Positions 1,720 to 61,966 of a DNA stretch of 64,000 nucleotides are shown here, piece after piece. Position 1 is the first letter of the stretch; each line of letters begins with the position of its first letter. The translations under genes were made by a program, and so were the position numbers. The notes under the pieces are model-generated. The model made no database searches. It was given only the letters and a program-made list of their open reading frames with translations, and was not told the DNA's origin. Source of the DNA: Candidatus Kapaibacterium sp. (GTDB taxonomy: Bacteria > Bacteroidota > Ignavibacteria > Kapaibacteriales > UBA2268); assembly GCA_965140345.1 (NCBI GenBank), contig OZ223198.1:327809-391808 (forward strand), given 5' to 3'.

Positions 1720-2183
1720 TATCCATTCCAGAGTGTTTTTTTAACAATAGTTAAACTGTATTCGTCCGTTCCTTCCTCAAAATTGGGATTTATAGAATCT
1801 TCAATAACTTCGAAAAGCGTTTTACCGAGAAATTCTTTCCAGATATTATCTGAGCTACCTGCCCTGACAAGATTCGTATCTGAAAACCACAGATATTTTT
1901 TGCTTAGGATGTCATTTTGCAGTCTGAAGTAATCATAATAATCATTGTATTTGTCGCTAGTTTCTACCATGAAAGGCATAAATTGAATTTGCATTTGTAA
2001 CTCTTGACTTCTAGGCCTTGATCGTCCACCTCCAACATTTCTTCTAAGTTCATCAGTATATGAAATGATAGGGAGTATTCCGGTTACTCCCAAATTCATC
2101 ATTGTCTGAGGGTTTTCATCTTGAAAATCTGAGTAGAAATTAGATCCACCTAAACGAATCCATTTAACCATACCAGGTTTCAC
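1719..2183 (-). CDS. hypothetical tail-module protein (154 aa)
   Basis: ORF track. Translationally coupled between the tape measure (stop/start at 2183) and the downstream tail gene. No recognised motif. Confidence 0.4.
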   Translation of the reverse strand: MKPGMVKWIRLGGSNFYSDFQDENPQTMMNLGVTGILPIISYTDELRRNVGGGRSRPRSQELQMQIQFMPFMVETSDKYNDYYDYFRLQNDILSKKYLWFSDTNLVRAGSSDNIWKEFLGKTLFEVIEDSINPNFEEGTDEYSLTIVKKTLWNG

Positions 2184-5100
2184 TACATCCTCCTTAAAGC
2201 TGCTTGCTTAGATTTGTCTATTGTTCCGGTTACTGACCTGTTATCAGCAGTCATTGTTCCGGATACTTGTACATTGATTCTAGTTTTTATATATCCTTTA
2301 AGTCTTTTTGTTTCTTTGATGTTTTCTTTTAGAAGATCTCGAGTTTTTGCATTTTCTTCTTTTAGAATTCTATTTTGTTCTCGTAGTTCAGAAATTACTT
2401 CCTTATCTCGATCATTTACCAAGGATTGTACTATGACATTTTTTTGTAGCTGAACTAACTCATCACTCTCAAATACTGCTTGATGGGATATCTCTTTTGT
2501 AATATCAGTTCTGTATTTGAAAATATAATCTTTAAGTGGAAGATTTGTTCTGTTAAGGACTTCATAATCAGCTTCATTTGTTGAAGTTGATTTGTCATTC
2601 ATTACAAACTCTTCGCCTTCTTCATTAATAGTTATGCGTTTTTGACCTCCAGGAACCTTACCACCTTTTCGGAAACCTAGACTTGATTCAGCAACAGAAA
2701 CTAACCCTAAAACAGTAGCTGTAGCTCCTGCTGCAATGACAGCTCCTAATATTGGATTTTGAGCAAATGCCTTGGCCGTAATTTCTGCGATATAAACCGG
2801 AACGAGTGATTTTAAGGCAGATATAGCTGTTTTGGCAAATGCTTTTTGGAAACTTTCACCATTAGCAATCATGCTGGCAAACATCGTCCCTGTGGTGACA
2901 CCGAAATCAGCGTACATTTCGGACTTTTCTTCTACTCTTGCAATCTCAAGATCATGTTCTTCCTGTTTTAGTTTCGCAAGATCTTCTTCTAAAGTAGACT
3001 TGAGTTTAAAATCCTTTTTAGCTATTGCGGATTCAATTTGTGATTGTTTGCTTTTTAATCTCTGATCAGTTTTTGATTGTCGAGAGGTTAGAGCAATAAG
3101 CTTTTTAGATGAGGCTTTTGCTGCAGCTAAAGATTGTTTTGACGATTCTTCCAAAGCCTTAGCGATTGCTTTGCCTACATTGTTTGAAGACTTAGCTTCT
3201 AAGTCAGCTTTTTCCTTGGCTAATTTTTCTGATTCTTTATTATGCTCAGCTTGAAGTTTTTCAAGGTTTTTGTAATAGTCTTTTACAGAGATTTCTTTTG
3301 ATTTTAGTTGATCACGAAGAGCATCCCTTTCTTTCTCAAAATTGGAAAGAGAAGCTTTCAGCTGGTCATCTTTTTCTTGTATGGCTTCAGTTTCTGAATT
3401 AGACTGAGAAAAATCAAATTGTAGTGCAGATGTAAAAATGCTAGTATTACGATACAACCTACTGGTATTTAGTAGATACTTTTTGTCTGCTTCTTCTTTT
3501 GCAAGCTGCAACTCTTCAAAAGCTTGGAACTCAAGTGCATAATTACCTCTAGCTTGATTCAGTCTATCTTCAAAGATTTTCTCTGCATTAAATAATGCTA
3601 GCTGCCTTTCTCTTTCAGCAAAATCATTGATAGATTTAATGTCTTCTTCTCGAAGTTTTTTCTTTAAATCAGAACTAATTTGTACGAGTTCTAACTCCAA
3701 ATTTTGAAGCTCAATCTTTAATTCTGCAATTCGTTTCGGATCTGACTTTGCACCTAATGCAATTTCAGTATTAAGCTCTTCTGTTAAAGTAGTTATCTGC
3801 GACTCAACTGTATTTAAGTCATATTTTAGCTTATCTGACTCAGCTTTTAGTCCAATAGAGATCTTATATTCCAATTCAGTTTTTTCCATCTGCTGATAAA
3901 TCTTCTCAGCTTCCTTTCTAGCCTGATCCTCATCTAGTTTTAGCTGAACTTTGGTTTTGAGTTCTACAAGTTGAGCCTCTTTCAATTTATTTGAATACTC
4001 TGCTACTACTTTTTGAGCTTCTTCGTAGTCCTTTTTTGTATTTGCAGATACTTTACCTTTTCTACTCTCGATATCATACTGTTTTTTAGCAATGCTGTAC
4101 AGCTCTTGGTAAGCCTTCAATTGTCTTTCTGCTTCAACAGAAGCTTTAGTAACTTCCTCAACCTTATCTTCCTGGACTTCAATTTCAGTTTTGAGTCTTC
4201 CCAGTTTTAGTATCGCTAGCTCTTCATCCAATTTTGCTTCTTTATTAGCTTCCTCAGCTATTTGGTTGTTTAACTCAAATCGTTTTTTTGCAATTGCATA
4301 TTCTGATTCTTTTGATTCTTTCTTAACTTTTGCTTTCTTTTCTTCTTGTTTAATCTCAACAGCAGTAAGGTCAATACCGGATTTCTTAAGATCATGAATA
4401 CTTTGATTTACAATTTTAGCTTCGTCATTTGCAACTTTTAGTTGTTTTTGAGCTTCATTTACTTGTTTTGTATATTCCGCCTCGTCAATTATTCCTTTGT
4501 TATAATCCAACTGAGCCTTGAGAGCTTTCTCCTTGGCTTCTTTTTGAAGAGAACCTATAGAACTTAATGTATCTCCCCAGTTTTTAGCAGCTGCATCTGT
4601 TTTTTTGGTTTCCTCAGTAATTTTCTGCTGTTCATTCTTTATTTCTGTAGCTTTTGTTCTAGCAACTCCATATTTGTCAGCTAGTTTGTCCAATGTTTCC
4701 TGACTTATTTCTCCTTTTTTACTAATCTCCTCAAGTTCTTTGGCTAGTAGCATTTTCTTTGCTTCATCCGAAGTGATATTCAACTGTTTAGCAATTTTGG
4801 ATATTGCTTTTTCTGTTAGTAAACCTGCTTTACCTCCTTTTTCAAAAGAATCTACTAGAGCTTGTTTATTCGCATTAACTGCAGAAATTTCTTCTTGGTA
4901 TTTATCAATAAGCTTTTGTTTTATTTCCGGATCATTCGCTTTGTTAATTCGTGTCTTTAAATCATCCAGATGATCTTTTTGCTTATCAATTATTCGAACT
5001 TGTTCTTCTAGCGATTTAGAATATATCTTTGCCTGTTCTGCTAATTCCGAACCTGATTTATTAGCGTTAGCAAATTCTTTAGCTTTATTTATATTGATGT

Positions 5101-5827
5101 CATATACCTGTTTGAGATTACCCATTGAGTCTACAACAGTTTTGAAATTTTGTCGTGTCTCGGGCGCAATGTTCCCGATAGATGCAGCAGTTTGTTGTGC
5201 TTGTGTTTCTAATTGTTTGAGTTCCTTTTGCTCATCGGAAGTTAAACCTTCTTTTGTATTTTTCGATTGCAGAACAGATATTTTAGTTTGCAAGTCTTCA
5301 TAAGAGGATAAGTATTCTTTAAAGGATTCTTCTTTATCTATCCGAACTTTAACTTCCATTCCTTTTTCTAATGATTCAGTTAGTTTTTTACCTTCATCTT
5401 CAAAATTAGCAGCTGCAATTTCACTAGCAAATTTATCGTTAAATGCATCTGCTGCACCTTCACCTACATTCCCGAAACTTTCCATAGCTCCGCTAAAGTC
5501 TAAAGTTAGAAGTTTACCAATACCCTCAATTGCCGGTACTATGAAAGTTTTAATTGACTCATAAACTGCCGTAGCTCCAGAAGATATTACTTTCCAAGCC
5601 TTATTAAAAGCTTCACGAACAGGCTCTACATTTTGATAAAGAAGATACATTGCAGTGGCAATTCCAGCGACTCCCAAAGCTATCCAACCAAGCGGTGAAG
5701 CAAGAAATACTGCATTAAGAGCTGTTTGCGCTGCTGTTAATGCACCGGTTGCCAGCGTTGTTGCTCCGGTAGATAAAGCAACAACTTTTTGTGTTACTGA
5801 TTGTCTTAAATTTGCTAAAGAAAGTGC
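2183..5827 (-). CDS. tail tape measure protein, C-terminal portion (gene split by IS insertion)
   Basis: The ORF track gives a 1164-aa ORF from a TTG at 5677. The same frame is open up to 5854, and native phage sequence resumes at 5827, the IS boundary. The protein is very long, Lys/Glu-rich and coiled-coil, with a hydrophobic Gly/Ala-rich segment near its N end and a C-terminal region after the coiled coil. These are typical TMP features. Confidence 0.7.
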   Translation of the reverse strand, partial: ALSLANLRQSVTQKVVALSTGATTLATGALTAAQTALNAVFLASPLGWIALGVAGIATAMYLLYQNVEPVREAFNKAWKVISSGATAVYESIKTFIVPAIEGIGKLLTLDFSGAMESFGNVGEGAADAFNDKFASEIAAANFEDEGKKLTESLEKGMEVKVRIDKEESFKEYLSSYEDLQTKISVLQSKNTKEGLTSDEQKELKQLETQAQQTAASIGNIAPETRQNFKTVVDSMGNLKQVYDININKAKEFANANKSGSELAEQAKIYSKSLEEQVRIIDKQKDHLDDLKTRINKANDPEIKQKLIDKYQEEISAVNANKQALVDSFEKGGKAGLLTEKAISKIAKQLNITSDEAKKMLLAKELEEISKKGEISQETLDKLADKYGVARTKATEIKNEQQKITEETKKTDAAAKNWGDTLSSIGSLQKEAKEKALKAQLDYNKGIIDEAEYTKQVNEAQKQLKVANDEAKIVNQSIHDLKKSGIDLTAVEIKQEEKKAKVKKESKESEYAIAKKRFELNNQIAEEANKEAKLDEELAILKLGRLKTEIEVQEDKVEEVTKASVEAERQLKAYQELYSIAKKQYDIESRKGKVSANTKKDYEEAQKVVAEYSNKLKEAQLVELKTKVQLKLDEDQARKEAEKIYQQMEKTELEYKISIGLKAESDKLKYDLNTVESQITTLTEELNTEIALGAKSDPKRIAELKIELQNLELELVQISSDLKKKLREEDIKSINDFAERERQLALFNAEKIFEDRLNQARGNYALEFQAFEELQLAKEEADKKYLLNTSRLYRNTSIFTSALQFDFSQSNSETEAIQEKDDQLKASLSNFEKERDALRDQLKSKEISVKDYYKNLEKLQAEHNKESEKLAKEKADLEAKSSNNVGKAIAKALEESSKQSLAAAKASSKKLIALTSRQSKTDQRLKSKQSQIESAIAKKDFKLKSTLEEDLAKLKQEEHDLEIARVEEKSEMYADFGVTTGTMFASMIANGESFQKAFAKTAISALKSLVPVYIAEITAKAFAQNPILGAVIAAGATATVLGLVSVAESSLGFRKGGKVPGGQKRITINEEGEEFVMNDKSTSTNEADYEVLNRTNLPLKDYIFKYRTDITKEISHQAVFESDELVQLQKNVIVQSLVNDRDKEVISELREQNRILKEENAKTRDLLKENIKETKRLKGYIKTRINVQVSGTMTADNRSVTGTIDKSKQAALRRM
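5820..5827. repeat. target-site duplication GAAAGTGC (left copy) of the IS256-family element
   Basis: The identical 8-mer is found at 5820-5827 and 7346-7353, immediately outside the imperfect terminal inverted repeats. Confidence 0.6.
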
Positions 5828-7345
5828 GGCAGTGTAAAATAAACTCTGTCTGTTCTATTTCTATAGAAGAAAATTCTAGGATGTGATTGTTAAAGATACA
5901 AATTTTTTAAATCACATCCTTATTTTTTACATTCCTTATAGGCGCATTTTGCCCCACACTTCGGCAATTGCTCTTTTTTGAAGATATTCCTCGATTTTAG
6001 GCATAGACAAACAGTCCAAATTTTTTGCGTAACAAAGTGTGCTAAAAATTTGGGTGTGTAGTCGCTCCAATTTAAATATCTAAGTGTAACCTATCAGAGC
6101 CGAAGTGTATTGCCAGCTGCTGAATAATCAAGCCCCAGTTCTGCATTGGCTGAGTCCACTTTTTACTGATTTCCTGAGTGGCCAAATAAGCTAACTTCAT
6201 TAGTGCCATTTCACTTGTAAAAGCTCCTTTAGTTTTTGTCACCTTCCGAACCTGCCTGTGGTAGCCTTCTACTGTATTGGTGGTATATATTATTTTTCTG
6301 ATATAGGGTGAATATTGAAAATATGTCGATAATTTTTCCCAGTTATTTTGCCATGATTTTATCACTATTGGATATTTATTACCCCATTTAGTAGCTAAGT
6401 TTTCTAATTCCATTTCTGCGACTGCCTTGGTTTCAGCCTTATAGACGAGCTTTAAATCACTCATAAAGGATTTTTGTTCTTTACTTGCTACATATTTTAT
6501 TGAGTTACGTATTTGATGAATAATGCACGTTTGTACTTCACATGCTGGGTAAACACTGTTGATCGCTTCTGCAAATCCTTTCAGATTATCGATTGCGGCT
6601 ATTAAAATGTCCTCAACTCCTCGGTTTTGAAGCTCAGTTAATACCGATAACCAAAAATTTGCTCCTTCACTTTCGGAAAAATATAAACCTAAGATTTCCT
6701 TACGACCTGTCTTATTTATACCCAAAACGGTATATATAGCTTTGCTTTGAATCCGACCGTTATCTTTAACTTTGAAGTGCATCGCATCCATAAATACGAT
6801 TGGATATACCGACTCTAATGGACGATTTTGCCATTGATGAATATCCGGTATTACTTTATCTGTGATTTGAGATAAGGTAGCTGCTGATACATTCATGCCA
6901 TACATTTCTTCGATATACTCAGAAATATCGCGTAAACTTAGCCCCTTGCCATACAGTGCTATTATTTTATTACTGAGACTATCTAAAAGCACTCTTTCAC
7001 GCTTTTTGACTATCTGAGGCTCGAAAGTTGAATTGCGGTCTTGCGGAGTTTTTATCTCTACAGGACCATGATTAGTTTTAAGCGTTTTTTTGCCTTTACC
7101 ATTACGCTTATTCTTTTTTTGAGGTTGATCCTCTGAAAGATGCTCACTCATTTCTGCTTCGAGTGCGGCTTCTAAGAATTGCTGCAGTAAAGGGGCAAAT
7201 GCACCATCTTTGCCTAATAGTGATTTGCCCTCTTTAAATTGCTTAATCGCTTTGTCTTGAATCGATTTGTAATCTTGTTCGTTCATTGCTCTGTCCTTTT
7301 ATTTATTATTATAACTCTAATGGACAGAGTTTAGTTTACAGTCTC
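5828..7345 (-). mobile_element. IS256-family insertion sequence (about 1.5 kb) inserted in the tape-measure gene
   Basis: A Mutator/IS256-type transposase ORF lies inside. Imperfect ~23-bp terminal inverted repeats are present (5828-5850 versus the reverse complement of 7323-7345; 19/23 identical, core AAACTCTGTC). An 8-bp direct repeat GAAAGTGC flanks the element. Removing the element plus one repeat copy rejoins the two TMP fragments in the same codon phase. Confidence 0.75.
6072..7286 (-). CDS. IS256-family (Mutator-type) transposase
   Basis: The 404-aa ORF carries the motif LYGKGLSLRDISEYIEEMYG plus DAMHFKV and CIIHQIRN-like segments characteristic of IS256/Mutator transposases. It sits between inverted repeats. 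Confidence 0.85.
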   Translation of the reverse strand: MNEQDYKSIQDKAIKQFKEGKSLLGKDGAFAPLLQQFLEAALEAEMSEHLSEDQPQKKNKRNGKGKKTLKTNHGPVEIKTPQDRNSTFEPQIVKKRERVLLDSLSNKIIALYGKGLSLRDISEYIEEMYGMNVSAATLSQITDKVIPDIHQWQNRPLESVYPIVFMDAMHFKVKDNGRIQSKAIYTVLGINKTGRKEILGLYFSESEGANFWLSVLTELQNRGVEDILIAAIDNLKGFAEAINSVYPACEVQTCIIHQIRNSIKYVASKEQKSFMSDLKLVYKAETKAVAEMELENLATKWGNKYPIVIKSWQNNWEKLSTYFQYSPYIRKIIYTTNTVEGYHRQVRKVTKTKGAFTSEMALMKLAYLATQEISKKWTQPMQNWGLIIQQLAIHFGSDRLHLDI

Positions 7346-8886
7346 GAAAGTGCAGAGGTATTTAATATTGCCTTTTTAGTTTGAATATCGTGAGTAACTA
7401 ATCCAGGTACTAAGAAGTTTACAATCATAGAAGCATATTGTTTGACATTCCCTATTGCTCCATCAGGGATAATACTGCCAAGCCCTGCGAATGTCATTGC
7501 TAACGGTGCAATTTGATTGGCCGCACCTAGCAAGATAGTAACTCCATCTCCAACAGCTCCGAAAGCTTTGAATGCTACTGCTTCTATCTTATTCATGATG
7601 CCTTGTATTTGTACTCCAATCCCAGTATTTGCAACATCAAATGCTCTTTGTGTAGAACCTGCAGCATCAGTTAAGTATGTTGCAAGAATATCTGCATACC
7701 CTTTTGCATTTTCTCCGGACAAAGCAAGTACTGCATTGGCTGCTTCTACAGATCCAAATACTTGTGTAGCACTTTGTCCTGCATTAGCCATTGCAATACC
7801 AATCTTTTCTAGAGATACCTGGAAGCCTTCTTCTTTAATTGATTTGAGTGATACACCAGCTTTCTTCATAACATTAGCTAGCGTCTCACCTGGTTTTGAC
7901 AACTCAACCATAGCTTGACGAATCTGGGTTGTAGCCTGAGCTGTTGGGATACCCTGCTTAGTCATCGTGGCGATTGCAGCGGTTACTTCTTCAAAAGGTA
8001 TCTTCATACTAGCTGCTGTTGGTATTACATTCGCTAGTGAAGAGTTTAATTCCGGTATTGTAGTGACACCTTTATTCACAGTGTTAAATAGAATATCACT
8101 GTATTTTGATGCATTCTCAAAACTATCCCCGTAGGCCGAGATGTTGGCAGACAAAGATTTTACTGCGGAATTAGTATCTGTAAGACCGGCAACAGCAAGT
8201 TTAGATGAAGTCTCAATAAACTTCATACCACCTGCTACATCGGCAATACCATTGCTGTCAACATTGATTGCGCCTGCACTAATTGCATTGTAGACCGCCT
8301 CTGTAACACCTGCTACAGTATCCGGAACATCAGCAGCAAGCTCAATGGCTTTGCTTCTGAAGTCTTCAAAATTCTTTACACCAAGAGTCCCGATCTTTTT
8401 GAGCTGTTTGTCAAACTCTCTATATGGTCCGAGAAACTGCTCAAAGGCTCCGGTTACTAATTGAATAGATTGTACAATTTGATTGAAAGCAAAGGCTTTT
8501 TGTAAACCTTGAGCTGCAATTCCTGCACCTTTTATAGAGCCTTCAAAGTTTTTGGTGTCCTTTGTTGTCTCTGCCATTGCTTTTTTTAACTGCTGAAGAG
8601 TTTTTGCTTGTGTTCCTAACGACTCTTTAGCATTTGCATAAGCGGTTTCCTGCTCTTTTGTAAGAGCAGTCCCCACTTTCATTAGGTTATTTATGTCCTT
8701 GACGGTTTTAAGGTTTGTATTGTAGTCGTTCTTTAGTTGACTGTAATATTTTGTAGCTTCTGCTAGAGATTTTATATCTACATTTACAGCTCCTTTTGTT
8801 CCCTTCGCTATTTGATCAGTAATCGCCTTAAATTTAGATGCGTCAAAGACAGGATTCAACTTAAAGTTGATCGAGAAGCCGCTCAT
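7336..8886 (-). CDS. tail tape measure protein, N-terminal fragment (truncated by IS; its stop codon lies in the IS terminal repeat)
   Basis: The 516-aa ORF is Ala/Gly-rich and resembles TP901-type TMP N-terminal regions. The last two codons and the TAA (7336-7338) are IS sequence. The position before the large coiled-coil ORF is consistent with a single original TMP of roughly 1700 aa. Confidence 0.7.
   Translation of the reverse strand: MSGFSINFKLNPVFDASKFKAITDQIAKGTKGAVNVDIKSLAEATKYYSQLKNDYNTNLKTVKDINNLMKVGTALTKEQETAYANAKESLGTQAKTLQQLKKAMAETTKDTKNFEGSIKGAGIAAQGLQKAFAFNQIVQSIQLVTGAFEQFLGPYREFDKQLKKIGTLGVKNFEDFRSKAIELAADVPDTVAGVTEAVYNAISAGAINVDSNGIADVAGGMKFIETSSKLAVAGLTDTNSAVKSLSANISAYGDSFENASKYSDILFNTVNKGVTTIPELNSSLANVIPTAASMKIPFEEVTAAIATMTKQGIPTAQATTQIRQAMVELSKPGETLANVMKKAGVSLKSIKEEGFQVSLEKIGIAMANAGQSATQVFGSVEAANAVLALSGENAKGYADILATYLTDAAGSTQRAFDVANTGIGVQIQGIMNKIEAVAFKAFGAVGDGVTILLGAANQIAPLAMTFAGLGSIIPDGAIGNVKQYASMIVNFLVPGLVTHDIQTKKAILNTSALSRL
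7346..7353. repeat. target-site duplication GAAAGTGC (right copy)
   Basis: Exact 8-bp repeat of 5820-5827 abutting the IS right end. Confidence 0.6.
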
Positions 8887-8893: not shown

Positions 8894-9262
8894 CTACCAG
8901 TTAGCTGCCCTGTCCATTACTATTTGTTCCCACACCCTAACTAAAGAACATTCTTTATAAAACCTGTCCTGTAACTCTGAATCTCCTTTTGCAGCTATAT
9001 AGCATAGCATCTTGTATCTATATTCTGCTTCCTCTGATTTAGTATAACCATGTTCTTCAGTAGGGATTAAATTCCATATATTCCAATATACTTTTTCTTC
9101 TTCTTCCGTTCCAGTTTCATTCTTTCTCGATTTAACTAGCATGGCCGGTGTCTCCAACAACCATGCTATTTTATCATCTTCCGATTTTATAGTAGCTTCG
9201 AAAGGTGTTGTTTGTTTCAGTAATTGTATTGAAGTCAACATTACTCCAAAACTCACCGTCAA
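8894..9262 (-). CDS. putative tail assembly chaperone, downstream ORF (T-like)
   Basis: 122-aa ORF immediately upstream of the TMP. Its frame is open from 9313 and overlaps the preceding ORF by 89-139 nt. Confidence 0.45.
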   Translation of the reverse strand: MTVSFGVMLTSIQLLKQTTPFEATIKSEDDKIAWLLETPAMLVKSRKNETGTEEEEKVYWNIWNLIPTEEHGYTKSEEAEYRYKMLCYIAAKGDSELQDRFYKECSLVRVWEQIVMDRAANW

Positions 9263-9704
9263 AAGCTTGATTATAAAGATCTTTATCTTCTTCTGAAAGT
9301 TTACGAGTATCTGTTATAAGTTTGAACATCCTGATGTTTGATTCTTCCGCAAACTTCCAACTCATCTCTTCCACTTTTGCATTAGATTCATATTCTTCGT
9401 CACTTATACCTGCGAGTTTTTCACTTAAGAAAAGTTCTTTTTTAGAAGCTAGTTCCTCATCAGTTATGTCAGGATTTAATTCAACTTGAGATTCCATATA
9501 GTCAGCCACCTCAGTATCCCATCCGGAATGGTCTGTAATCATATCCTTAGTTTTCTCATGTAACTCTTTAAGAGCTTTTTGGGAATTAAGAGAATGATTG
9601 ATGATTCTTGTTCGAAGTAATGGAGTTAGGAACTTCAAACGAAGTTCCATTGTTTTTGTATCTCCATTGTTATCATAATAATTTAAGCTTACTTTGTTGT
9701 CCAT
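9174..9704 (-). CDS. putative tail assembly chaperone (G-like), acidic
   Basis: 176-aa acidic protein between the major tail protein and the TMP, overlapping the next ORF. The layout is syntenic with the G/GT chaperone pair. Confidence 0.5.
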   Translation of the reverse strand: MDNKVSLNYYDNNGDTKTMELRLKFLTPLLRTRIINHSLNSQKALKELHEKTKDMITDHSGWDTEVADYMESQVELNPDITDEELASKKELFLSEKLAGISDEEYESNAKVEEMSWKFAEESNIRMFKLITDTRKLSEEDKDLYNQAFDGEFWSNVDFNTITETNNTFRSYYKIGR

Positions 9705-17965: not shown

Positions 17966-18892
17966 CTATGATCTTGCTATTACGTCTTTTAGAAGATATG
18001 CTGATTCAGCACCTACAATCTTGATGTCATAGTTTGTGGTGCATCTAATTACTTTTATCTTGCCACCATTTGTATTATATGTATCTACAAATGGGTGACC
18101 TTTTTTACGAAGAGTATATCCAAAAGAAGGCTGATAAGGTGTTTTAGCCATACCGGAATTTGGTACTTTATAAAACAATACTAGATTGTTGCCCCAGATA
18201 TCTTTAAATGTTTTTTTATCTTCTGAGTAGATAGCTTCACCAACTAATATTTCATTTACTTCCAAGAGTCTTTTTAACAAATCTTTGGTAACTATACCTG
18301 TTTGTGAATACTTGATTTTTTCAATAATTAGTGGATGATTTACAAGTACATCATAAACAGCCGGCCCCATTACCAATGTATTTGCTCTTGCTCCAATAAT
18401 ATCTCGAAGTGCGTTCCTCTTTTCTCGAATCAAAATTGTTGGATCAATACCTGAATCATCCAATTGATTATCTACTAGTGTTTCTTTGTTGGAGTCAGCA
18501 TAATTATCCGCATCTTGCAGTAATTCCGCAGCTTTTAATTCATGGCCTAGAGATAAAACATCTTTTGTTCTTCGAGTAGCTAAAACTTTCTCGTTCATAA
18601 AAGATTCTTTTTCTTCTCTGTAGTCAATCCTACGTTCTATGTCATGTTCTTCAGTAGAATATTTAATTGTACTTAAAAAGTCTCCGTCCATCTGATTTGA
18701 ATCGGCTCTAATAGCTCTTTCTGTCTTGTATGACATAAAAGACTCTTTACCAAACTGAGGGATTTTGCCGGCTTCTTTTTCTACATCTACTGTTGGAAAT
18801 ATCTGTTCACCAATGAATGCAGAATTATGATAGCCTCTTGCAATATTAGTCAAAATTGGGTCTACGACTCTAGCTTTATCTAAATGTCCCAT
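17966..18892 (-). CDS. major capsid protein (Mu gpT-like)
   Basis: 308 aa. Directly downstream of the protease/scaffold gene (ATGA overlap at 18892). Size and context are those of Mu-like major head subunits. Confidence 0.55.
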   Translation of the reverse strand: MGHLDKARVVDPILTNIARGYHNSAFIGEQIFPTVDVEKEAGKIPQFGKESFMSYKTERAIRADSNQMDGDFLSTIKYSTEEHDIERRIDYREEKESFMNEKVLATRRTKDVLSLGHELKAAELLQDADNYADSNKETLVDNQLDDSGIDPTILIREKRNALRDIIGARANTLVMGPAVYDVLVNHPLIIEKIKYSQTGIVTKDLLKRLLEVNEILVGEAIYSEDKKTFKDIWGNNLVLFYKVPNSGMAKTPYQPSFGYTLRKKGHPFVDTYNTNGGKIKVIRCTTNYDIKIVGAESAYLLKDVIARS

Positions 18893-20079
18893 TACTTACC
18901 AGTCTCCATTACTTTGTACAGGGCTTCTTCATATGTCACACTATTTCCTTTGCTTTTTTCTGCAGCCATATAGTCTTTTACTTCTTTGTCCAATACCAAT
19001 GCATCTTCGTCTACTTCATGACCATTATAGTCTTCTAGTGAACCGGCTAGTTCCCTCTTAGCAACTCCCCTAGGAGTTTGTTCATGGTATTTAAATGCAA
19101 CCGGGAAGGATGTAATAAGATCTTTGATTAGTTCAATACCTGATTTTTTGACCTGTGAATCATTTTCCGAGAAAGATATTTCTCCATTCTGGTGTCCCAT
19201 CTCCATTGCTGCAATAAGTAAGTCTTGCTGTGCCGGAACTATTTTTCCTTCTCGAATCAAATCTTTTGCAAAAGAGTTGTATTCTGAAAGCCTGTTCCTT
19301 AATTCTAGTCTGTGTACTTGCTTTTCTAAAGCCAGTACCTCTTCTGATTTGACAGGTGGTTTTTCTTGAAAATCTATTTTGGGAATAAGACTTTCAAATA
19401 TACCTGCCATCTTACCTGCTATTTCCTCCGAGAAATCAGCTTTCACTTGTTTCGTAAGCTCAGCTATTATCTCTTTAGCGTTCATGTTGCCATCCTCTTT
19501 GTTTTTAATTTGATTTTGTATTTCTTCTAAGCGGGTATCGTTTTCAGATTTGTAGTTATTGATTCTACTCTCAATTGCTGTGTTGATAAGAGTTTGCACC
19601 TGTTGCTCGTTTAGAGTGCTTGATTCGTAATCGATGTAATTACCATTATTTTCACTTTCAAAACTTTGCATATTGGCAGGTTCTTCAGAGAAGTCAACAT
19701 CTTCAAGACCTTTTACAGCAGGAGCTGCTGCACCAAGGAAACCGATATGTCTTAAATTATAGTTGCCATCGAGTGATATTGATCTCTTTTTGTAGTGTCC
19801 TGCTTTTACCCATTCAACAAACTGAGGAGTCAGTTGTTTTAGTTTTGCTAGGAGAACATCTCCTTGGCGCTTCAGAGTTTCTACCCAACCAAATGCAGGA
19901 GCATTAGTTTCAGGATGACCAATTACGATTGGAGCCTCATGTTTTTTGTCTTTTGCTTGATTATTATAGTTTTCTACAATTTTATCAAGATCTGAATTTG
20001 TCCATTCTTTCGTATTCCCTGCCGAATCTGTTTGTTTTCCGGAGCGAAAAACTTCAATCCAACTGTTTTTTAATAGCAT
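18892..20079 (-). CDS. prohead protease / scaffold fusion (Mu gpI-like)
   Basis: N-terminal IVIGHPETNAPAFGWVETLKRQGDVLLAKLK...GHYKKRSISL resembles the Mu-like prophage I protease family. The C-terminal half is a charged coiled coil, i.e. scaffold-like. Confidence 0.5.
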   Translation of the reverse strand: MLLKNSWIEVFRSGKQTDSAGNTKEWTNSDLDKIVENYNNQAKDKKHEAPIVIGHPETNAPAFGWVETLKRQGDVLLAKLKQLTPQFVEWVKAGHYKKRSISLDGNYNLRHIGFLGAAAPAVKGLEDVDFSEEPANMQSFESENNGNYIDYESSTLNEQQVQTLINTAIESRINNYKSENDTRLEEIQNQIKNKEDGNMNAKEIIAELTKQVKADFSEEIAGKMAGIFESLIPKIDFQEKPPVKSEEVLALEKQVHRLELRNRLSEYNSFAKDLIREGKIVPAQQDLLIAAMEMGHQNGEISFSENDSQVKKSGIELIKDLITSFPVAFKYHEQTPRGVAKRELAGSLEDYNGHEVDEDALVLDKEVKDYMAAEKSKGNSVTYEEALYKVMETGK

Positions 20080-20267
20080 TGCCCAGTCCTTTTTGTCTTA
20101 CTTTACAGGAAATATATAAAAAGTCACTGTTTGCTTATAAAAAACTGATTATAATTTGATTTAAGAAAAGTCTTAGAGTTTTTTATAAATGCTTTGTTGA
20201 ATTTTGACAGGCAAATTTTGTTAATTCCTTTGATAAAGCCAGTTTTAAGAAACTTTAGGATGGAAGA

Positions 20268-21641
20268 ATGAGTACAAGTTTGCTGGATAACTTTAAAGTT
20301 ATACCTATTTCAAAACTAGTCAAAGCGGATTGGAATTATAAAACAGATGACCCTGTAAAAAAAGAAAAACTCAAAGAGAATATTAAACGAAATGGACAAA
20401 TAGAGAATGTTTTAGTTCGCTTGCTGGATACAGGATTCTACGAGATTGTCAATGGTAATCATCGACAAGATGTATTTGTAGAATTAGGATTCGAGGAAGT
20501 GGTAGCTTTTGATTTTGGGAAAATATCACTCGCAGCTGCACAGAGAATAGCTATTGAAACAAATGAAACTAAGTTTGATTCGGATACTGACAAATTAGCA
20601 AAGCTACTTCAAGAAATAAAACTTGAGTTTAACGAAGAAGATTTAAAGGCAACAATGCCATTTGACGAAGATGAGTTTTCGGAGATGATGTCAAGAGAAA
20701 TAACTGAGATTGATTTTGATCTTGACAACGATAAAGACTATTCAGAGATTGAAGAAGATAATTTTGATGAAGAGCTTCCGGAGAAGCCTAAAACTAAAAC
20801 AGGAGATCTATACGAACTAGGTATACATCGTCTTCTTTGCGGTGACTCTACAGACATCAATGACGTTAATTCTTTAATGGATGGTCAGACAGCCCACCTG
20901 CTTTATACAGATCCACCTTATAATATCGCTTACACTGAATTTAATAAGCTAAGAGGTTCGAGCAGAGAAGAACCAAAAGGAAAAGATTGGGGTGAAGAAT
21001 ATAACTCTTCATGGACTGATTATATGCCTGATGATCAATTCCAAAAATTCTTAATAGACTTCCTTGCATTAGCAAAGAAACATCTTATTCCTTACGGACA
21101 TTACTATGTCTGGCATGCTACAAATTATTACAGAGAAACCTTGAAGGCTTTTGAAGCAAATGAAATTCCTTACGATAAAGTACCAATTATCTGGAAAAAG
21201 AATGTTGCACCTCTTTCATGGGTTCATTATAAACGTATCCATGAGCCATGCATCTTTGGAGGGTTAGGAGCTGTTAACGGAGCTGGTAAAGCGGCAAGAT
21301 GGTTCGGACCAAATAATGAAACTACAGTATGGTGTATTGACAGAGATCCGAATAACAGTTATATCCATCCAACTCAAAAACCTGTAGCTTTGGCAGCCAG
21401 AGCCTTAAAGAATAGTTCGCAGCCTGGTGAAATTGTATTAGATATGTTTGCCGGTTCAGGTACTACTCTTATTTGTTCTGACAAGATGAGTAGAATCTGT
21501 TTTACCATGGAAAAAGAGCCTAAATTCTGTGATATGATTGTCAAAAGATATATAAAGCATTGTAAGGAATCAGATCAGTCCTGTGTAGTAAAAAGGAATG
21601 GTATAGAAATAGAAGAAAGCTTTTTTGAAGAAACTGAATAA
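20268..21641 (+). CDS. ParB-like nuclease domain fused to DNA N6-adenine/N4-cytosine methyltransferase
   Basis: N-terminus with FYEIVNGNHRQD (ParB/Srx fold). C-terminus with DPPY (motif IV) and HPTQKP...FAGSGTT (motif I), a beta-class amino-methyltransferase. Lies directly upstream of the terminase genes. Confidence 0.85.
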   Translation: MSTSLLDNFKVIPISKLVKADWNYKTDDPVKKEKLKENIKRNGQIENVLVRLLDTGFYEIVNGNHRQDVFVELGFEEVVAFDFGKISLAAAQRIAIETNETKFDSDTDKLAKLLQEIKLEFNEEDLKATMPFDEDEFSEMMSREITEIDFDLDNDKDYSEIEEDNFDEELPEKPKTKTGDLYELGIHRLLCGDSTDINDVNSLMDGQTAHLLYTDPPYNIAYTEFNKLRGSSREEPKGKDWGEEYNSSWTDYMPDDQFQKFLIDFLALAKKHLIPYGHYYVWHATNYYRETLKAFEANEIPYDKVPIIWKKNVAPLSWVHYKRIHEPCIFGGLGAVNGAGKAARWFGPNNETTVWCIDRDPNNSYIHPTQKPVALAARALKNSSQPGEIVLDMFAGSGTTLICSDKMSRICFTMEKEPKFCDMIVKRYIKHCKESDQSCVVKRNGIEIEESFFEETE

Positions 21642-22179
21642 ATATCAAATGAAACAAGAAACAATTAAACCTTGGGAAAGACAGCCAAAAGAGAGCATAA
21701 AAGCTTATGAAGCTTTTTGTAGATATAGAGATATGGGATATGGCAGAACACTAAAGAAGGTTGCGGTTGAACTTGGTAAATCGCAACAAAATATGAATAT
21801 GCTGTCTATGAAATGGGATTGGGTCAAAAGGACACAAGCCTGGATAGATGAATTAGAAAAAATAAAAGCTCAAGCTCAAAAGAAAGAAATAGAAGATATG
21901 GTAAAAAGACATTGCCAAGAATCTATGCTCTTTCAAAAGGTACTGACACTTCCTGCAGAGGCACTAATAAAAGAACTGAAGAAAGATCCTGAATCATTTA
22001 GTAAAATTCCTATACCGGCTTTATTTGAAAAAGCTCTTAAATCTGCAAATGTTCTTTCCAGTATCATTGACATAGAACGTAAGTCTCGAGGTGAACCTGA
22101 CTCGATCAGGCAAACAGATGTCACTTCGGGTGGTAAAGAGATTGTTGTAATTAAACCTGTATTCGAAGAAAAGAAATGA
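21625..22179 (+). CDS. terminase small subunit (putative)
   Basis: 184-aa ORF immediately upstream of TerL. HTH-like region (KAYEAFCRYRDMGYGRTLKKVAVELG) typical of small terminases. Confidence 0.5.
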   Translation: MKKLNKYQMKQETIKPWERQPKESIKAYEAFCRYRDMGYGRTLKKVAVELGKSQQNMNMLSMKWDWVKRTQAWIDELEKIKAQAQKKEIEDMVKRHCQESMLFQKVLTLPAEALIKELKKDPESFSKIPIPALFEKALKSANVLSSIIDIERKSRGEPDSIRQTDVTSGGKEIVVIKPVFEEKK

Positions 22180-23480
22180 CATTTGATTTTTCTAATAAAG
22201 ATTTATTTAACCATGTATATTTGCCACTTCTTTCTGACCAAAATCGAATTAATATTTTATATGGAAGTAGAGATAGTGGCAAATCGGATTTCATTGCTCA
22301 AAAGATTATAATATCATTGCTAGAAGAAGAGTTTATGAGACTAATACTTTTGAGGAAATATTATGCATCCATTAAATCTTCACAGTTTCAAACAATAATT
22401 GATTATATAAATATGTGGGGGCTTCAAGAGCATTTCAAATGGAATGTTAGCCCCCTTTTTATAGAGTGTAAACTAAACGGGAATCAGGTCTTAGCAAGAG
22501 GCCTCGATAAACCTGATAATACAAAGTCAATTAAAGACCCTACTGCTATATGGTATGAAGAAGCCGATCAAATAAGTGAAGAAGCCTTTACCGAAGCTTC
22601 TCTTTCTCTTCGATCCTCTCGTGCAGTAAATTTGAAAGAATATATTTCATTTAATCCAAGACGCGAACAATCATGGATAAATAGAAGATTCTTTCCGAAC
22701 AAAGCTAGTTATGAGAATCCTGAAGGAAGATTCCATTTTGTCAAGTCTATTCAACCTAACGTTACTATCCTCCATACGCATTATCGAGATAATAGATTTT
22801 GTTCTCCGGAAAGAGCCCTGAATTTAGAATTACTTCAAAATATAGATGAAAATCTCTATAAAGTTAATGCATTAGGACTTTGGGGAGGAGCTTTAAAAGG
22901 TCTTGTATATACTCATTGGAAGATTACTGATGAGTTTCCAAATGGAGATACTGTATTTGGTTTAGACTATGGTTATAACAATGCTACTGCTTTAGTCGAA
23001 GTTAGATACTGTGATAAAGAGCTATACATCAAACAACATATTTATCAGACAAAACTTACTCATGCTGATGTTATTCATCAAATAAGTAATGAGTTTCGCA
23101 GCATAATAGGAAGCCATCCAATCTATGTAGATTCAGCTGAACCGGCTCTAATCAAGGAGTTAAAGAAAGCAGGATTTATTGCCAAACCTGCGGTGAAAGG
23201 TTCTAATAGTGTATACGAAGGCATTATCAAATGTAAGGAATTAGCCTGGAATATTCATTCTGATTCTATCAATATACTTGAAGAAGTTGAAAGTTATATA
23301 TGGAAACGGGATTCGGATGATAATGCAACTGATCAACCAGTGAAGATTGATGATCATGCTATGGATGCTATTCGGTATGTAGTTCACACTTACGGTACAA
23401 AGTATTGGCTAAGAAGTCAAGGAAAAACAAGTAAGAGATTAAGACAAAAAAGAGAAAGAACATCATTTTCAAATTTTTAG
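22176..23480 (+). CDS. terminase large subunit
   Basis: Walker A-like ILYGSRDSGKS. C-terminal RNaseH-like nuclease motif DDHAMDAIRY. 434 aa. Confidence 0.85.
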   Translation: MTFDFSNKDLFNHVYLPLLSDQNRINILYGSRDSGKSDFIAQKIIISLLEEEFMRLILLRKYYASIKSSQFQTIIDYINMWGLQEHFKWNVSPLFIECKLNGNQVLARGLDKPDNTKSIKDPTAIWYEEADQISEEAFTEASLSLRSSRAVNLKEYISFNPRREQSWINRRFFPNKASYENPEGRFHFVKSIQPNVTILHTHYRDNRFCSPERALNLELLQNIDENLYKVNALGLWGGALKGLVYTHWKITDEFPNGDTVFGLDYGYNNATALVEVRYCDKELYIKQHIYQTKLTHADVIHQISNEFRSIIGSHPIYVDSAEPALIKELKKAGFIAKPAVKGSNSVYEGIIKCKELAWNIHSDSINILEEVESYIWKRDSDDNATDQPVKIDDHAMDAIRYVVHTYGTKYWLRSQGKTSKRLRQKRERTSFSNF

Positions 23481-23489
23481 GATTGAGAT

Positions 23490-24959
23490 ATGAAAGATAG
23501 TCTTAAAGCAATTGCAACTAGAAACAAAGTGTATTTTCAAGCACTTTTTGATGCATTGCCAAATCCCAATAAACTATTAGTTTCCGGAGGAGGAAGAATT
23601 GCCACTGTTGAAGATATCAAACTAGATCCTCATGTATCTAGTTATATACAGTCACGTACTTCGGGTGTAACATCCCAATTATGGGAAGTTCAAAGTACTG
23701 ATGATGACAAGCAAATTTTAGAATTAGTCCAAATGGTATTTGATAATTTGCCTATAAGAAAAATTATTGAAGATATTGTCAATGCACCATTATATGGATA
23801 CCAACCTCTGGAAGTTATGTATGTCGAGCAGGAAGTCAACGGTAAACTTCTAATTTTACCTACAGATGTAGTTGCAAAACCATTTAGCTGGTTTCTTTTT
23901 GATAAAGATAATATTCTCAAGCTTAGGACTCTAGAGAATCAAGAAGGAGAAGACTTACCTCCGATGAAGTTCCTGTGTCCTCAAAACAAAGCTAGTTATA
24001 ATAATCCGTATGGAGAATCAGTTCTTTCAAAATGTTTATGGAGTATCATCTTTAAGAAAGGTGGACTAACCTTTTGGGTTAAATTTACTGAAAAGTTTGG
24101 GATGCCTCATTTTGTTGGTAAGACTGATAAACTAGCTGATAGTGATGATTTTGATGAGTTTGTTGATATGTTAGATGAACTTGTTCAAGATGGCTCTGCT
24201 GTAATTTCTACAGAGGATGAGATTGAAGTACTAAGTGGTGCATCATCAATTTCGGTAAATGTATACAAAGAATTGTTGTCTTTCTGTAATGCAGAAATTT
24301 CAAAAGCAATATTGTCTCAAACACTAACCACTGATATAGGGAATACCGGTAGCTACGCAGCTGCTCAAACTCACGATGCGGTTCGTATGGAAGTAGTTGA
24401 TGCTGACAAGAGTTTGGTTCAAGATACATTTAACTTGCTCATCCGCTGGATAGTTGATATAAACTTTGGCAAAAATATTAAAGCTCCAAAGTTTGTTATT
24501 TACCAGGAAGAAGATGTTGATGCACCTCTTGCGGATGTGGTTCAAAAACTAGCATCTACAAATCAAATTCAATTTACGGAGCAGTTCTTTACTTCCAGGT
24601 TCGGATTTAAAAAAGAAGAGTTCAGAATTGTTAATCCTAAAACTGAGACTAGCAAAACTAATCAACCTGAATACTCTGCTTTTAATGAGAATAATAGTAA
24701 ATTGATTGATCAGATGGTTATTGATAACTTTGTCGACCAGTCTGCAAAAATGAGTAGAAGTACTCTAAATCAGACGACACAATATGTCGTGGATTACCTA
24801 AAAAAGAAGAGTTCACTTAAATCTGCTCTTTCCGGTATAAATAAATTACTTCCAAAAATGGATAGTGAAGATATCGAAACCAAGCTCATCAACATGATGT
24901 TTATGGCTGATGTGATAGGTAGACTTTCAGTTAAAGAGGAGCTTGAGAATGCCAAATAA
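23490..24959 (+). CDS. portal protein (DUF935 / Mu gp29-like)
   Basis: 489 aa, directly after TerL and before the Mu F-like gene. Confidence 0.6.
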   Translation: MKDSLKAIATRNKVYFQALFDALPNPNKLLVSGGGRIATVEDIKLDPHVSSYIQSRTSGVTSQLWEVQSTDDDKQILELVQMVFDNLPIRKIIEDIVNAPLYGYQPLEVMYVEQEVNGKLLILPTDVVAKPFSWFLFDKDNILKLRTLENQEGEDLPPMKFLCPQNKASYNNPYGESVLSKCLWSIIFKKGGLTFWVKFTEKFGMPHFVGKTDKLADSDDFDEFVDMLDELVQDGSAVISTEDEIEVLSGASSISVNVYKELLSFCNAEISKAILSQTLTTDIGNTGSYAAAQTHDAVRMEVVDADKSLVQDTFNLLIRWIVDINFGKNIKAPKFVIYQEEDVDAPLADVVQKLASTNQIQFTEQFFTSRFGFKKEEFRIVNPKTETSKTNQPEYSAFNENNSKLIDQMVIDNFVDQSAKMSRSTLNQTTQYVVDYLKKKSSLKSALSGINKLLPKMDSEDIETKLINMMFMADVIGRLSVKEELENAK

Positions 24960-27954: not shown

Positions 27955-28072
27955 ACATAATTATGAAAATAAAATAAATTATATTAATAAACAATAGCAT
28001 TAACTACGTATTATTGAAATAAGTATTTATACTAGATATGGAGGGGGAGGTATCCCCCCATAATTTCAGATA

Positions 28073-28312
28073 CTAAGCTTTTGATATCAAACCTGATTCT
28101 AATAATCCAGTTAAAAATCCCTCGTCAGAAGTCTTTGAAATTATTATTCCAGTTTGAAGTTTAATCCTTTCTGCACTTTTTTGCATAAATTCTTCAGTTG
28201 TTTCCGCTTCACCAAACATAGAATTTTTATTTAAAATTGAGATTGCTTCTTCAGCATTATTGGCCTCAAACTCAAAGCCATCGCTGGTTACATATTTTGT
28301 TTTTTCTATCAT
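28073..28312 (-). CDS. hypothetical protein (79 aa)
   Basis: ORF track; downstream of the amidoligase gene. Confidence 0.35.
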   Translation of the reverse strand: MIEKTKYVTSDGFEFEANNAEEAISILNKNSMFGEAETTEEFMQKSAERIKLQTGIIISKTSDEGFLTGLLESGLISKA

Positions 28313-28383
28313 TGAATATCTCCTTAAGAGTAATATAAATATCTTTACTGAATTATAAAAGAAATCGAGCTTAATAGAAGAGC

Positions 28384-60742: not shown

Positions 60743-61966
60743 CTAATCCCAAGCCTTAAAAGCTTCTTTTACATCACTCTCAGCAATTTTAACATATTTT
60801 TGAAAAGATTGTCTCGATTTATGACCGGTAACTTTCATCACCGTTTCGGGAAGTATACCTAACTTCAAACTCAAAGTGATGAATGTTCGCCTAGCAGTAT
60901 GAGACGAAACTAGTTCATACTTTGGAATAATCTCTTCCTTTTTTGCACCGGCAATATACTTAGTTATTTTTATATCCTCACTTATACCTGCCAGTTGACA
61001 AAGTTTCTTGATATTTAGATGATATCTGGCTTTTGATCTGAATTGTATTGACTCAATAGGATGTTTCAAAAATATCTTGAAGAGTTTGCTAACTATTGGA
61101 ATAGTTACTTCTTCAGATGTTTTTTGAGTAGTCAATCTTATTTCTCTATTCTCCATATCTACATTCATTGGGCTAAGCTTCATAATATCTGATTGTCTTA
61201 AACCTGTATAGCATTGAATTAAAAAATAATACTTGCTCCAAAGCAATTTTTCAGTTTTTCCGGATAGTTCAAGCTCTTCTAATTTTTCTAATTCTTGGGT
61301 AGTCAATACTATCTTCGATGCAACTTTGTTTTCAAAAGAGAAGAATTTGTAATCCATGGATGTATTAATCTTTTCAATATAAGCGTAACTACAAATAGTC
61401 TTTATAAACTTAATATGTGAATGTATATATCCTGTGCTTAGATTTAGAGTATTTAAATATCTAATTAGAGACAAGAAAAATGGCTCATTGATATCATTGA
61501 ACAAAATTTGAATTTGTTGATCCTTCTCGAATCCTACAAGATTTTGATAAAGTTGATTATAAGTTTTAAGTGTATTGGAATTAAACCGATTGCCTCTTTG
61601 AGTCAATGCCTCTCCAGTTGCAAATCTTTTCAATAAATTTTCTGTATACTCTATAAAAGTAGTAAAATCACTCTGCTTTTTATTTAAAAAAGTCTTTAAT
61701 TGATGTCTTGACAGACTACCTATACCATGTTCCTCTTCCACCCTATTTACAAATCGCGTTATAGAACTAATCTTTTTATCTATCTGAGCATTCTTTTCAA
61801 AATGATTTTTTTCTCTCGTAGAAATCCTTTTGGTTCGTTTGCTAAAGTTTGCTGGATTAATACTAACACCAGAAGAAATCTGAATCCTAAACCCATTCAT
61901 CGCTATATTAAGCATTATAACCGCTTTGTTGTTTTTGACAGATAAATATGGAGATATTCTAACCAT
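60743..61966 (-). CDS. tyrosine site-specific integrase (Bacteroidetes phage/CTn type)
   Basis: C-terminal catalytic region with HTARRTF, GHKS and terminal Tyr-containing block. 407 aa. Last gene before host mla genes. Confidence 0.8.
   Translation of the reverse strand: MVRISPYLSVKNNKAVIMLNIAMNGFRIQISSGVSINPANFSKRTKRISTREKNHFEKNAQIDKKISSITRFVNRVEEEHGIGSLSRHQLKTFLNKKQSDFTTFIEYTENLLKRFATGEALTQRGNRFNSNTLKTYNQLYQNLVGFEKDQQIQILFNDINEPFFLSLIRYLNTLNLSTGYIHSHIKFIKTICSYAYIEKINTSMDYKFFSFENKVASKIVLTTQELEKLEELELSGKTEKLLWSKYYFLIQCYTGLRQSDIMKLSPMNVDMENREIRLTTQKTSEEVTIPIVSKLFKIFLKHPIESIQFRSKARYHLNIKKLCQLAGISEDIKITKYIAGAKKEEIIPKYELVSSHTARRTFITLSLKLGILPETVMKVTGHKSRQSFQKYVKIAESDVKEAFKAWD

What the first reader, a model, noticed from the sequence alone, without database searches (positions are those of the whole stretch)
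5820..7353. IS256-family element inserted, in codon phase, into the prophage tape-measure gene
A 1518-bp element (Mutator/IS256-type transposase, imperfect ~23-bp terminal inverted repeats, 8-bp target duplication GAAAGTGC) separates a 516-aa TMP N-terminal ORF from an ~1.2-kb-codon TMP C-terminal ORF. Deleting the IS plus one repeat copy rejoins the two parts in the same frame (...NTS-ALS-LANLRQS...), giving a single ~1700-aa TMP. This is a clean, probably recent transposition that should inactivate tail assembly and turn the prophage into a cryptic/defective element or trap it. The N-terminal fragment's stop codon is supplied by the IS terminal repeat.
Basis: seen in the sequence. Interest (0 to 1): 0.6.

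Follow-up and report, generated by a model that had tools for sequence, protein, structure and literature searches.

The report
IS256-family element splitting prophage tape-measure gene
A 1.5-kb jumping gene of the IS256 family has landed in the tail-length (tape-measure) gene of an integrated phage in an uncultured Kapabacteria-like bacterium, almost certainly stopping the phage from building tails; this is a clean but ordinary kind of event.

Summary

- **The element.** Window 5828-7345 is a 1518-bp insertion sequence. It has 19/23-matching terminal inverted repeats and a perfect 8-bp target duplication, GAAAGTGC, at 5820-5827 and 7346-7353.
- **The transposase.** It carries one intact 404-aa IS256/Mutator-type DDE transposase (Pfam PF00872 E 1e-104; NCBIfam IS256 equivalog 405 bits against a cutoff of 150). 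D167, D233, E340 and the CxxH motif are all conserved against the solved ISCth4 transposase.
- **Other copies.** Three further copies, 93.5-96.6% identical, lie in two related genomes. They end at exactly the same bases, and each has its own 8-bp duplication.
- **The target gene.** Removing the element plus one repeat gives a single 1725-aa ORF. It aligns continuously across the junction with uninterrupted 1300-2100-aa tape-measure proteins. The junction sits in an invariant N-T-x-A-L-x-L motif.
- **The host element.** It is a real integrated phage with terminase, Mu-type portal, protease, major head protein and an integrase. It is absent from a sister genome that is 98.8% identical in the flanking DNA.

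Loss of tail assembly is inferred, not shown. "Recent" is supported only by the perfect repeats and the undecayed gene halves. "In codon phase" is a trivial consequence of excising an insertion. Low novelty and low interest.

The parts
5820..5827 (.). Target-site duplication copy 1 (GAAAGTGC; GCACTTTC on the gene strand)
   Evidence: It abuts the IS end defined by comparison with three other copies.
5828..7345 (-). IS256-family insertion sequence, 1518 bp, transposase in the same orientation as the tape-measure gene
   Evidence: The ends coincide with loss of similarity to copies L001 (95.0%), L002 (96.6%) and L003 (93.5%). There is no second copy in the window.
7323..7345 (-). Terminal inverted repeat at the transposase 5' end (GAGACTGTAAACTAAACTCTGTC). 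It contains the TAA (7336-7338) that terminates the N-terminal tape-measure fragment.
   Evidence: This end is conserved in relatives whose transposases are 69-75% identical (L006, L010).
6072..7286 (-). Transposase gene, 404 aa, intact; DDE residues D167/D233/E340 and C254-x-x-H257
   Evidence: PF00872 E 1.2e-104. NCBIfam NF033543 IS256 family, 404.8 bits against cutoff 150. PDB 6xg8 (ISCth4) E 4.4e-115, with catalytic residues aligned (residue identities from PMC7780238).
5828..6071 (-). 244-bp non-coding 3' tail of the IS. It includes the terminal inverted repeat (5828-5850) and two hairpins.
   Evidence: Nearly invariant among the four copies except for a 20-nt block. It folds somewhat better than shuffles, z -2.6. 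It is not shared with the 75%-identical relative beyond the terminal repeat. No Rfam match.
7346..7353 (.). Target-site duplication copy 2 (GAAAGTGC)
7336..8886 (-). Tape-measure gene, N-terminal fragment: 514 native codons plus Arg-Leu-stop from the IS
   Evidence: PF10145 PhageMin_Tail E 2e-26. TIGR01760 tape_meas_TP901 E 7.5e-26..
2183..5827 (-). Tape-measure gene, C-terminal part: 1211 codons with no stop. There is no in-frame start codon before TTG 5677 / ATG 5650.
   Evidence: Continuous alignment of the rejoined protein with P0122, P0121 and P0128. Chance of an open frame this long is about 8e-44 at this base composition.
8894..9704 (-). Two overlapping ORFs directly upstream of the tape-measure gene, at the position usual for tail assembly chaperones. 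The second is in the +1 frame, and there is no canonical slippery heptamer.
   Evidence: No family match. The assignment rests on position only.
60743..61966 (-). Tyrosine integrase next to the right-hand junction (about 62152) of the integrated element that contains the phage
   Evidence: PF00589, PF13102 and PF17293. Synteny with the sister genome L004 starts at 62152.

Best explanation
**What it is.** A 1518-bp IS256-family insertion sequence, encoding an apparently functional DDE transposase, transposed into codon 514 of a 1725-codon tape-measure gene. The gene belongs to a temperate phage integrated in the chromosome of an uncultured Kapabacteria-like (FCB-group) bacterium. The insertion made the family's usual 8-bp target duplication. 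By family analogy the route was copy-out/paste-in through a circular intermediate.

**Effect on the gene.**
- Translation of the tape-measure gene now ends two codons into the IS terminal repeat. This gives a 516-aa N-terminal stub.
- The 1211-codon remainder has no start codon near the junction.
- No full-length tape-measure protein can be made.

**Expected consequence.** This protein templates and initiates tail-tube assembly in long-tailed phages. The prophage should therefore still be able to excise, replicate and package DNA, but it should yield tail-less, non-infectious particles. It is a freshly grounded prophage.

**Shown here:** the anatomy of the IS, its family, the exact insertion point, the integrity of both gene halves, and the integrated state of the phage.

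**Inferred:** the transposition pathway, the activity of the transposase, and the loss of tail assembly.
For: - **IS anatomy and ends:**. Four independent insertions, each with its own 8-bp duplication. A fifth, in a 75%-identical relative, has TATTATTT.
- **Family:**, with catalytic residues taken from PMC7780238.
- **Closest annotated relatives:** IS256-family transposases of Bacteroidota plasmids at 58-64% identity.
- **Rejoined 1725-aa ORF:**
- **Homology across the junction to intact tape-measure proteins:**
- **Tape-measure domain hits:**
- **No usable start for the C-terminal part:**
- **Phage genes:** terminase, Mu-type portal, Mu F, head protease, major head protein, tail-repeat protein, D5 primase-helicase.
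- **Integration:** integrase plus a synteny break against a 98.8%-identical genome that lacks the element.
- **IS present in the same species:** at least two full copies in the 3.65-Mb sister genome.
Against: - No IS-free allele of this phage was found in viral or metagenome contigs. The polymorphism, and hence the recency, is not shown directly.
- The nearest IS copies are 3.4-6.5% divergent in DNA. No donor copy is identified.
- The left end of the integrated element lies outside the window. Completeness of the prophage cannot be judged.
- The nearby mlaE gene carries a 1-bp frameshift. The assembly may therefore contain indel errors, or the genome may carry other pseudogenes.
- Loss of tail assembly is not tested.
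Confidence: 0.9

Rival explanations
1. Assembly artefact: a repeated IS was wrongly placed in the tape-measure gene when the metagenome or genome was assembled.
For: The IS is multicopy in this species. The source appears to be a large assembled contig of 1.35 Mb. One nearby gene has a 1-bp indel.
Against: Both flanks are the two halves of one gene and meet exactly. They are bracketed by a perfect 8-bp duplication of the length this IS makes at its other sites. A mis-join would not create a target duplication. This copy's sequence is also distinct from the other known copies.
Confidence: 0.03
2. The insertion is tolerated. The two tape-measure pieces are both made, the second from an IS-borne outward promoter and an internal start, and they still support tail assembly.
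For: The IS lies in the same orientation as the gene, so read-through transcription into the C-terminal part is possible. No strong terminator was detected in the IS. Both halves are still open.
Against: The first in-frame start codons are 50-59 codons past the junction, inside a hydrophobic segment. All 120 listed homologues are single polypeptides of about 970-2300 aa. The junction cuts an invariant motif. The open frames are equally expected if the event is simply young.
Confidence: 0.03
3. Reversible switch: the IS is occasionally lost by precise excision between the 8-bp repeats. This restores the gene, so a subpopulation keeps an infectious prophage.
For: The perfect 8-bp repeats are the substrate needed. 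Precise, transposase-independent excision of IS256 is reported in Staphylococcus epidermidis (Hennig and Ziebuhr 2008, as cited in PMC13640169).
Against: The same source states that excision is orders of magnitude rarer than insertion. No IS-free allele was found. Nothing suggests selection for switching.
Confidence: 0.04

Closest known systems
IS256 family insertion sequences (IS256 of Staphylococcus/Enterococcus; ISCth4 of Clostridium thermocellum, PDB 6xg8)
   Same: Single Mutator-type DDE transposase with a CxxH insertion domain, imperfect terminal inverted repeats and an 8-bp target duplication. Size is about 1.3-1.5 kb.
   Different: Only about 58-64% protein identity to the nearest annotated transposases, those of Bacteroidota plasmids. 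The 244-bp non-coding 3' tail is unusually long; related elements examined here have 30-190 bp. The host is an uncultured Kapabacteria-like lineage.
IS1201 insertion in a tail-protein gene of prophage PhiM247 of Lactobacillus crispatus (PMC10763512)
   Same: An IS with a roughly 400-aa transposase disrupts a tail structural gene of an otherwise complete prophage. From my own knowledge, not tested here, IS1201 belongs to the IS256 family.
   Different: Different host phylum and a different tail gene: a baseplate or tail protein rather than the tape measure.
IS256-family element carried by the induced Phocaeicola phage PV4-TP1 (PQ571302.1)
   Same: A Bacteroidota temperate phage carrying an IS256-family transposase that is 61.6% identical, located a few kb from its tape-measure gene.
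   Different: There the annotated transposase gene lies between annotated genes, and the record is from phage obtained by antibiotic induction. Here it splits an essential gene.
TP901-type phage tail tape-measure proteins (PF10145 / TIGR01760)
   Same: N-terminal domain hits, great length and continuous homology to 1300-2100-aa tape-measure proteins of Kapabacteria and Ignavibacteria prophages.
   Different: Interrupted. The best full-length relative is only 37% identical (P0122).

Membership tests
IS256 family insertion sequence | Mutator/IS256-type DDE transposase | tested here: met
   PF00872 E 1.2e-104 over 10-378 of 379 profile positions. NCBIfam NF033543 'IS256 family transposase' equivalog, 404.8 bits against cutoff 150.
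IS256 family insertion sequence | Catalytic D-D-E triad and C/DxxH motif in the helical insertion domain | tested here: met
   The alignment to ISCth4 (6xg8) places D167, D233, E340 and C254/H257 opposite D175, D241, E348 and C262/H265 (PMC7780238). The chain numbering is offset by 3.
IS256 family insertion sequence | Imperfect terminal inverted repeats | tested here: met
   19 of the first 23 positions match. The ends are identical in four copies and conserved in 69-75% relatives.
IS256 family insertion sequence | 8-9-bp target-site duplication | tested here: met
   8 bp at five independent insertions: window, L001, L002, L003, L006.
IS256 family insertion sequence | Copy-out/paste-in transposition through a circular intermediate | not testable with these tools
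   Needs circle-junction PCR or in vitro assays. It is inferred from the family (PMC7780238).
IS256 family insertion sequence | Identity to a named ISfinder entry | not testable with these tools
   ISfinder is not available. There was no near-identical DNA in the phage or plasmid collections.
Phage tail tape-measure protein | Tape-measure domain (PF10145 / TIGR01760) | tested here: met
   E 2e-26 and 7.5e-26 in the N-terminal fragment.
Phage tail tape-measure protein | One continuous long polypeptide, homologous end to end with intact tape-measure proteins | tested here: met
   Met only after in-silico excision: 1725 aa. P0122 gives one alignment over residues 60-1617, and P0123 over 6-574. 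The junction lies in an invariant motif.
Phage tail tape-measure protein | Position in the tail module: after the chaperone ORF pair, before the distal tail genes | tested here: inconclusive
   An overlapping ORF pair lies upstream, and a long ORF downstream runs off the window. Neither has a family match.
Integrated prophage | Phage packaging, head and tail genes | tested here: met
   Terminase, Mu-type portal, Mu F, morphogenesis protein, protease, major head protein, tail-repeat protein.
Integrated prophage | Integrase, and absence of the element from a closely related genome at the same site | tested here: met
   Integrase at 60743-61966. Window 62152-64000 is 98.8% identical to L004, and similarity stops at 62152.
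Integrated prophage | Both ends with attachment-site repeats | not testable with these tools
   The left end is outside the window. No convincing repeat of the right junction was found inside it.

The most novel reading that the evidence does not exclude
The insertion couples two mobile elements. The IS lies in sense orientation inside the phage late operon. Prophage induction would therefore drive transcription through the transposase gene and mobilise the IS. Rare repeat-mediated precise excision could in turn re-arm the prophage. Together these would make a reversible, population-level switch of phage infectivity. Nothing here tests either step.
Probability: 0.04. Interest if true: 0.5.

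Novelty: new member of a known kind. Interest (0 to 1): 0.13.

Why it matters
It is a textbook-clean example of how insertion sequences ground prophages. It documents an apparently active IS256-family element and a long-tailed temperate phage in the poorly studied Kapabacteria-like lineage. For annotation, the two ORFs at 7336-8886 and 2183-5827 should be treated as one disrupted tape-measure gene. The prophage should be scored as probably defective for transmission, though possibly still able to excise and lyse. No new mechanism is implied.

Tried and rejected
- **Near-identical DNA of the IS** in the plasmid and phage collections: none.
- **Exact look-ups** of the window's transposase, tape-measure fragment and major head protein in the contig index: not on record. 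P0274 and P0362 were also not retrievable, although both are listed on a 1.35-Mb contig. The source contig therefore could not be read, and the IS copy number in the source genome is unknown.
- **Empty-site search** with a wobble-degenerate junction pattern in metagenome contigs, and tape-measure relatives in viral contigs: nothing.
- **IS-tail pattern:**
  - viral contigs: nothing;
  - metagenome contigs: nothing;
  - species-representative genomes: one further copy, L003.
- **Rfam on the whole window:** no match.
- **A 22-codon ORF in the IS tail** was considered as a possible small gene and rejected. In copy L003 a 23-bp insertion plus an indel changes its frame and length. The tail is also unrelated in the 75%-identical relative.
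- **Canonical -1 slippery heptamer** in the ORF pair upstream of the tape-measure gene: none; the second ORF is in the +1 frame.
- **Attachment-site repeat** of the right junction inside the window: only 12-13-mers, which I judge to be at chance level (no shuffle control was run).
Full report
**Observation.**
- The 8-mer GAAAGTGC lies at 5820-5827 and again at 7346-7353.
- Between the two copies are 1518 bp. The ends are inverted repeats matching at 19 of the first 23 positions.
- This stretch holds a single 404-aa ORF on the - strand, 6072-7286.
- The ORF to its right, 7336-8886 (-), is 516 aa. The frame to its left stays open for 1211 codons down to 2183.
- Deleting 5820-7345 gives one uninterrupted 1725-aa ORF reading ...NTSALSLANLRQS....
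- The stop codon of the 516-aa fragment (TAA, 7336-7338) is indeed inside the IS terminal repeat. The fragment ends ...NTSALS-RL*, with the last two residues encoded by the IS.

**Independent definition of the element.**
- The transposase has a 99%-identical relative and a 97%-identical one in a single 3.65-Mb contig (ERZ21831251 ctg13067l). A scan of species-representative genomes found one more copy, in MAG CALNXW01.
- DNA identity to the window copy is 95.0%, 96.6% and 93.5% respectively. In all three, similarity stops at exactly the bases that correspond to 5828 and 7345.
- Each copy is flanked by its own 8-bp direct repeat: GAAAATGC, TTACTATC and GTAGCACC. A 75%-identical relative, 1471 bp long, has TATTATTT.
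- The element boundaries and the 8-bp duplication are therefore properties of the element and not a chance match in the window.

**Family.**
- The protein matches Pfam Transposase_mut over almost the whole model, E 1.2e-104.
- It matches the NCBIfam IS256-family equivalog at 404.8 bits against a cutoff of 150.
- It matches the solved ISCth4 transposase (6xg8) at E 4.4e-115.
- In that alignment D167, D233, E340 and C254/H257 stand opposite the ISCth4 catalytic residues D175, D241, E348 and C262/H265 (PMC7780238).
- The gene is full length and shows no lesion, so the element looks transposition-competent. This is inferred.
- The nearest annotated relatives are IS256-family transposases on Bacteroidota plasmids, at 58-64% identity.

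**The interrupted gene.**
- The N-terminal fragment carries the tape-measure domain: PF10145 E 2e-26 and TIGR01760 E 7.5e-26.
- A search with the rejoined protein listed single-polypeptide tape-measure proteins, mostly 1300-2100 aa. Many come from Kapabacteria, Ignavibacteria or Chlorobi MAGs.
- P0122 aligns in one piece with residues 60-1617 of the rejoined protein. P0123 aligns with 6-574 and P0121 with 5-522. All three cross the junction at residue 514.
- In a local alignment the junction lies inside the only run of invariant columns, N-T-x-A-L-x-L.
- The C-terminal part has no in-frame start codon until TTG 5677 or ATG 5650. These lie 50-59 codons past the junction, within a hydrophobic stretch. 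It is unlikely to be made on its own.

**Context.**
- *Phage genes.* On the - strand are a major head protein (PHROG 1005, E 5e-97), a head protease, a tail-repeat protein and a CHAP/lytic transglycosylase protein. On the + strand are a ParB-methylase, the large terminase, a Mu-type portal, a Mu F-like protein and a virion morphogenesis protein. A D5-type primase-helicase lies further on.
- *Left edge.* Downstream of the tape-measure gene an ORF of more than 560 codons runs off the left edge. The phage therefore extends beyond the window.
- *Right edge.* Window 62152-64000 is 98.8% identical to a stretch of the 3.65-Mb genome. Similarity stops abruptly at 62152, just outside a tyrosine integrase gene at 60743-61966. 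Everything from the left edge to 62151 is thus integrated DNA absent from a genome of the same or a very close species.
- *Host.* T9SS sorting domains in neighbouring genes, and the names attached to MlaE and tape-measure relatives, place the host among Kapabacteria-like members of the FCB group.
- *Source.* The window's exact transposase sequence is on record from one 1,352,570-bp contig. That contig could not be retrieved.

**Mechanism and consequences.**
- *Shown:* an IS256-family element sits inside codon 514 of the tape-measure gene with an 8-bp duplication. Neither gene half has decayed; an open frame of 1211 codons has a chance probability of about 8e-44 at this composition.
- *Inferred from the family:* insertion by copy-out/paste-in (PMC7780238).
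- *Inferred from established knowledge of long-tailed phages:* without a full-length tape-measure protein no tail is initiated. Induction would give DNA-filled heads that cannot infect. Excision, replication and lysis need not be affected.
- *Precedents.* IS-disrupted tail genes in prophages are already documented, for example IS1201 in PhiM247 (PMC10763512). IS256-family elements also occur in phage records, including an induced Phocaeicola phage.

**Limits.**
- *"Recent".* This rests on the perfect repeats and the intact halves. No IS-free allele of this phage was found. No near-identical donor copy is known, since the nearest copies differ by 3.4-6.5%.
- *"In codon phase".* This is not a finding. 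The insertion adds 1526 bp and splits a codon, and any clean insertion rejoins in frame when removed with one repeat.
- *Reversion.* It is possible in principle. Precise excision of IS256 between its repeats is reported but rare.

**Verdict.**
- It is an ordinary event of a well-known kind, involving an apparently unnamed member of the IS256 family in an under-studied lineage.
- Interest is low.

Noticed in passing
window 62461-63622 (about 63009): The mlaE permease gene is split into two overlapping ORFs by a 1-bp insertion (ATTT against ATT), relative to the intact 377-aa gene of the 98.8%-identical sister genome. This is either a real pseudogene or an indel error in the assembly.
   Followed up: partly
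window 42000-62151: Between the phage genes and the integrase lies a 20-kb stretch of lower G+C (0.29-0.32). It holds a HEPN (RiboL-PSP) protein, a K+ channel, two NS-type endonucleases (one with a T9SS sorting domain), a RelA/SpoT-like small synthetase next to an NA37 nucleoid protein, an S24 peptidase, an HTH protein and TPR and BNR proteins. It may be phage cargo or a second island in tandem. The boundary with the phage was not resolved.
   Followed up: partly
window 5828-6071: The IS has an unusually long 244-bp non-coding tail after the transposase stop. It is almost invariant among four copies whose coding regions differ by 3-7%. The exception is a 20-nt block in the loop of an A/T-rich hairpin, where the window copy differs at 8 positions. 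The tail is unrelated in a 75%-identical relative, and there is no Rfam match.
   Followed up: partly
L002 2885-2941: Directly beside one IS copy in the sister genome is a miniature remnant of about 50 bp. It consists of both IS terminal repeats back to back (GACAGTGTAAAATAAACTCT-ATT-GGACAGAGTTTAGTTTAC). The full-length copy has inserted into its tip. It could be a MITE-like or internally deleted derivative.
   Followed up: no
window 8894-9704: Two overlapping ORFs lie just upstream of the tape-measure gene, where tail assembly chaperones with a programmed frameshift usually sit. The second ORF is in the +1 frame, and the overlap has no XXXYYYZ heptamer.
   Followed up: partly
window 17966-26207: The packaging genes (methylase, terminase, portal, Mu F, morphogenesis protein; + strand, 20268-26207) are transcribed divergently from the head and tail genes (- strand, from 20079 downwards). 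They are not in one co-directional late operon.
   Followed up: no
window 26113-29361: Inside the phage, a 613-aa ORF with no family match lies in the lowest-G+C segment (0.288). Next to it is an Amidoligase_2 protein (E 1e-43).
   Followed up: no
L007 310-3215: A 75%-identical relative of the IS lies between two adjacent genes that both hit AAA_15-type ATPase families. It may have split a single gene, which would be another gene-disrupting insertion by this IS group.
   Followed up: no
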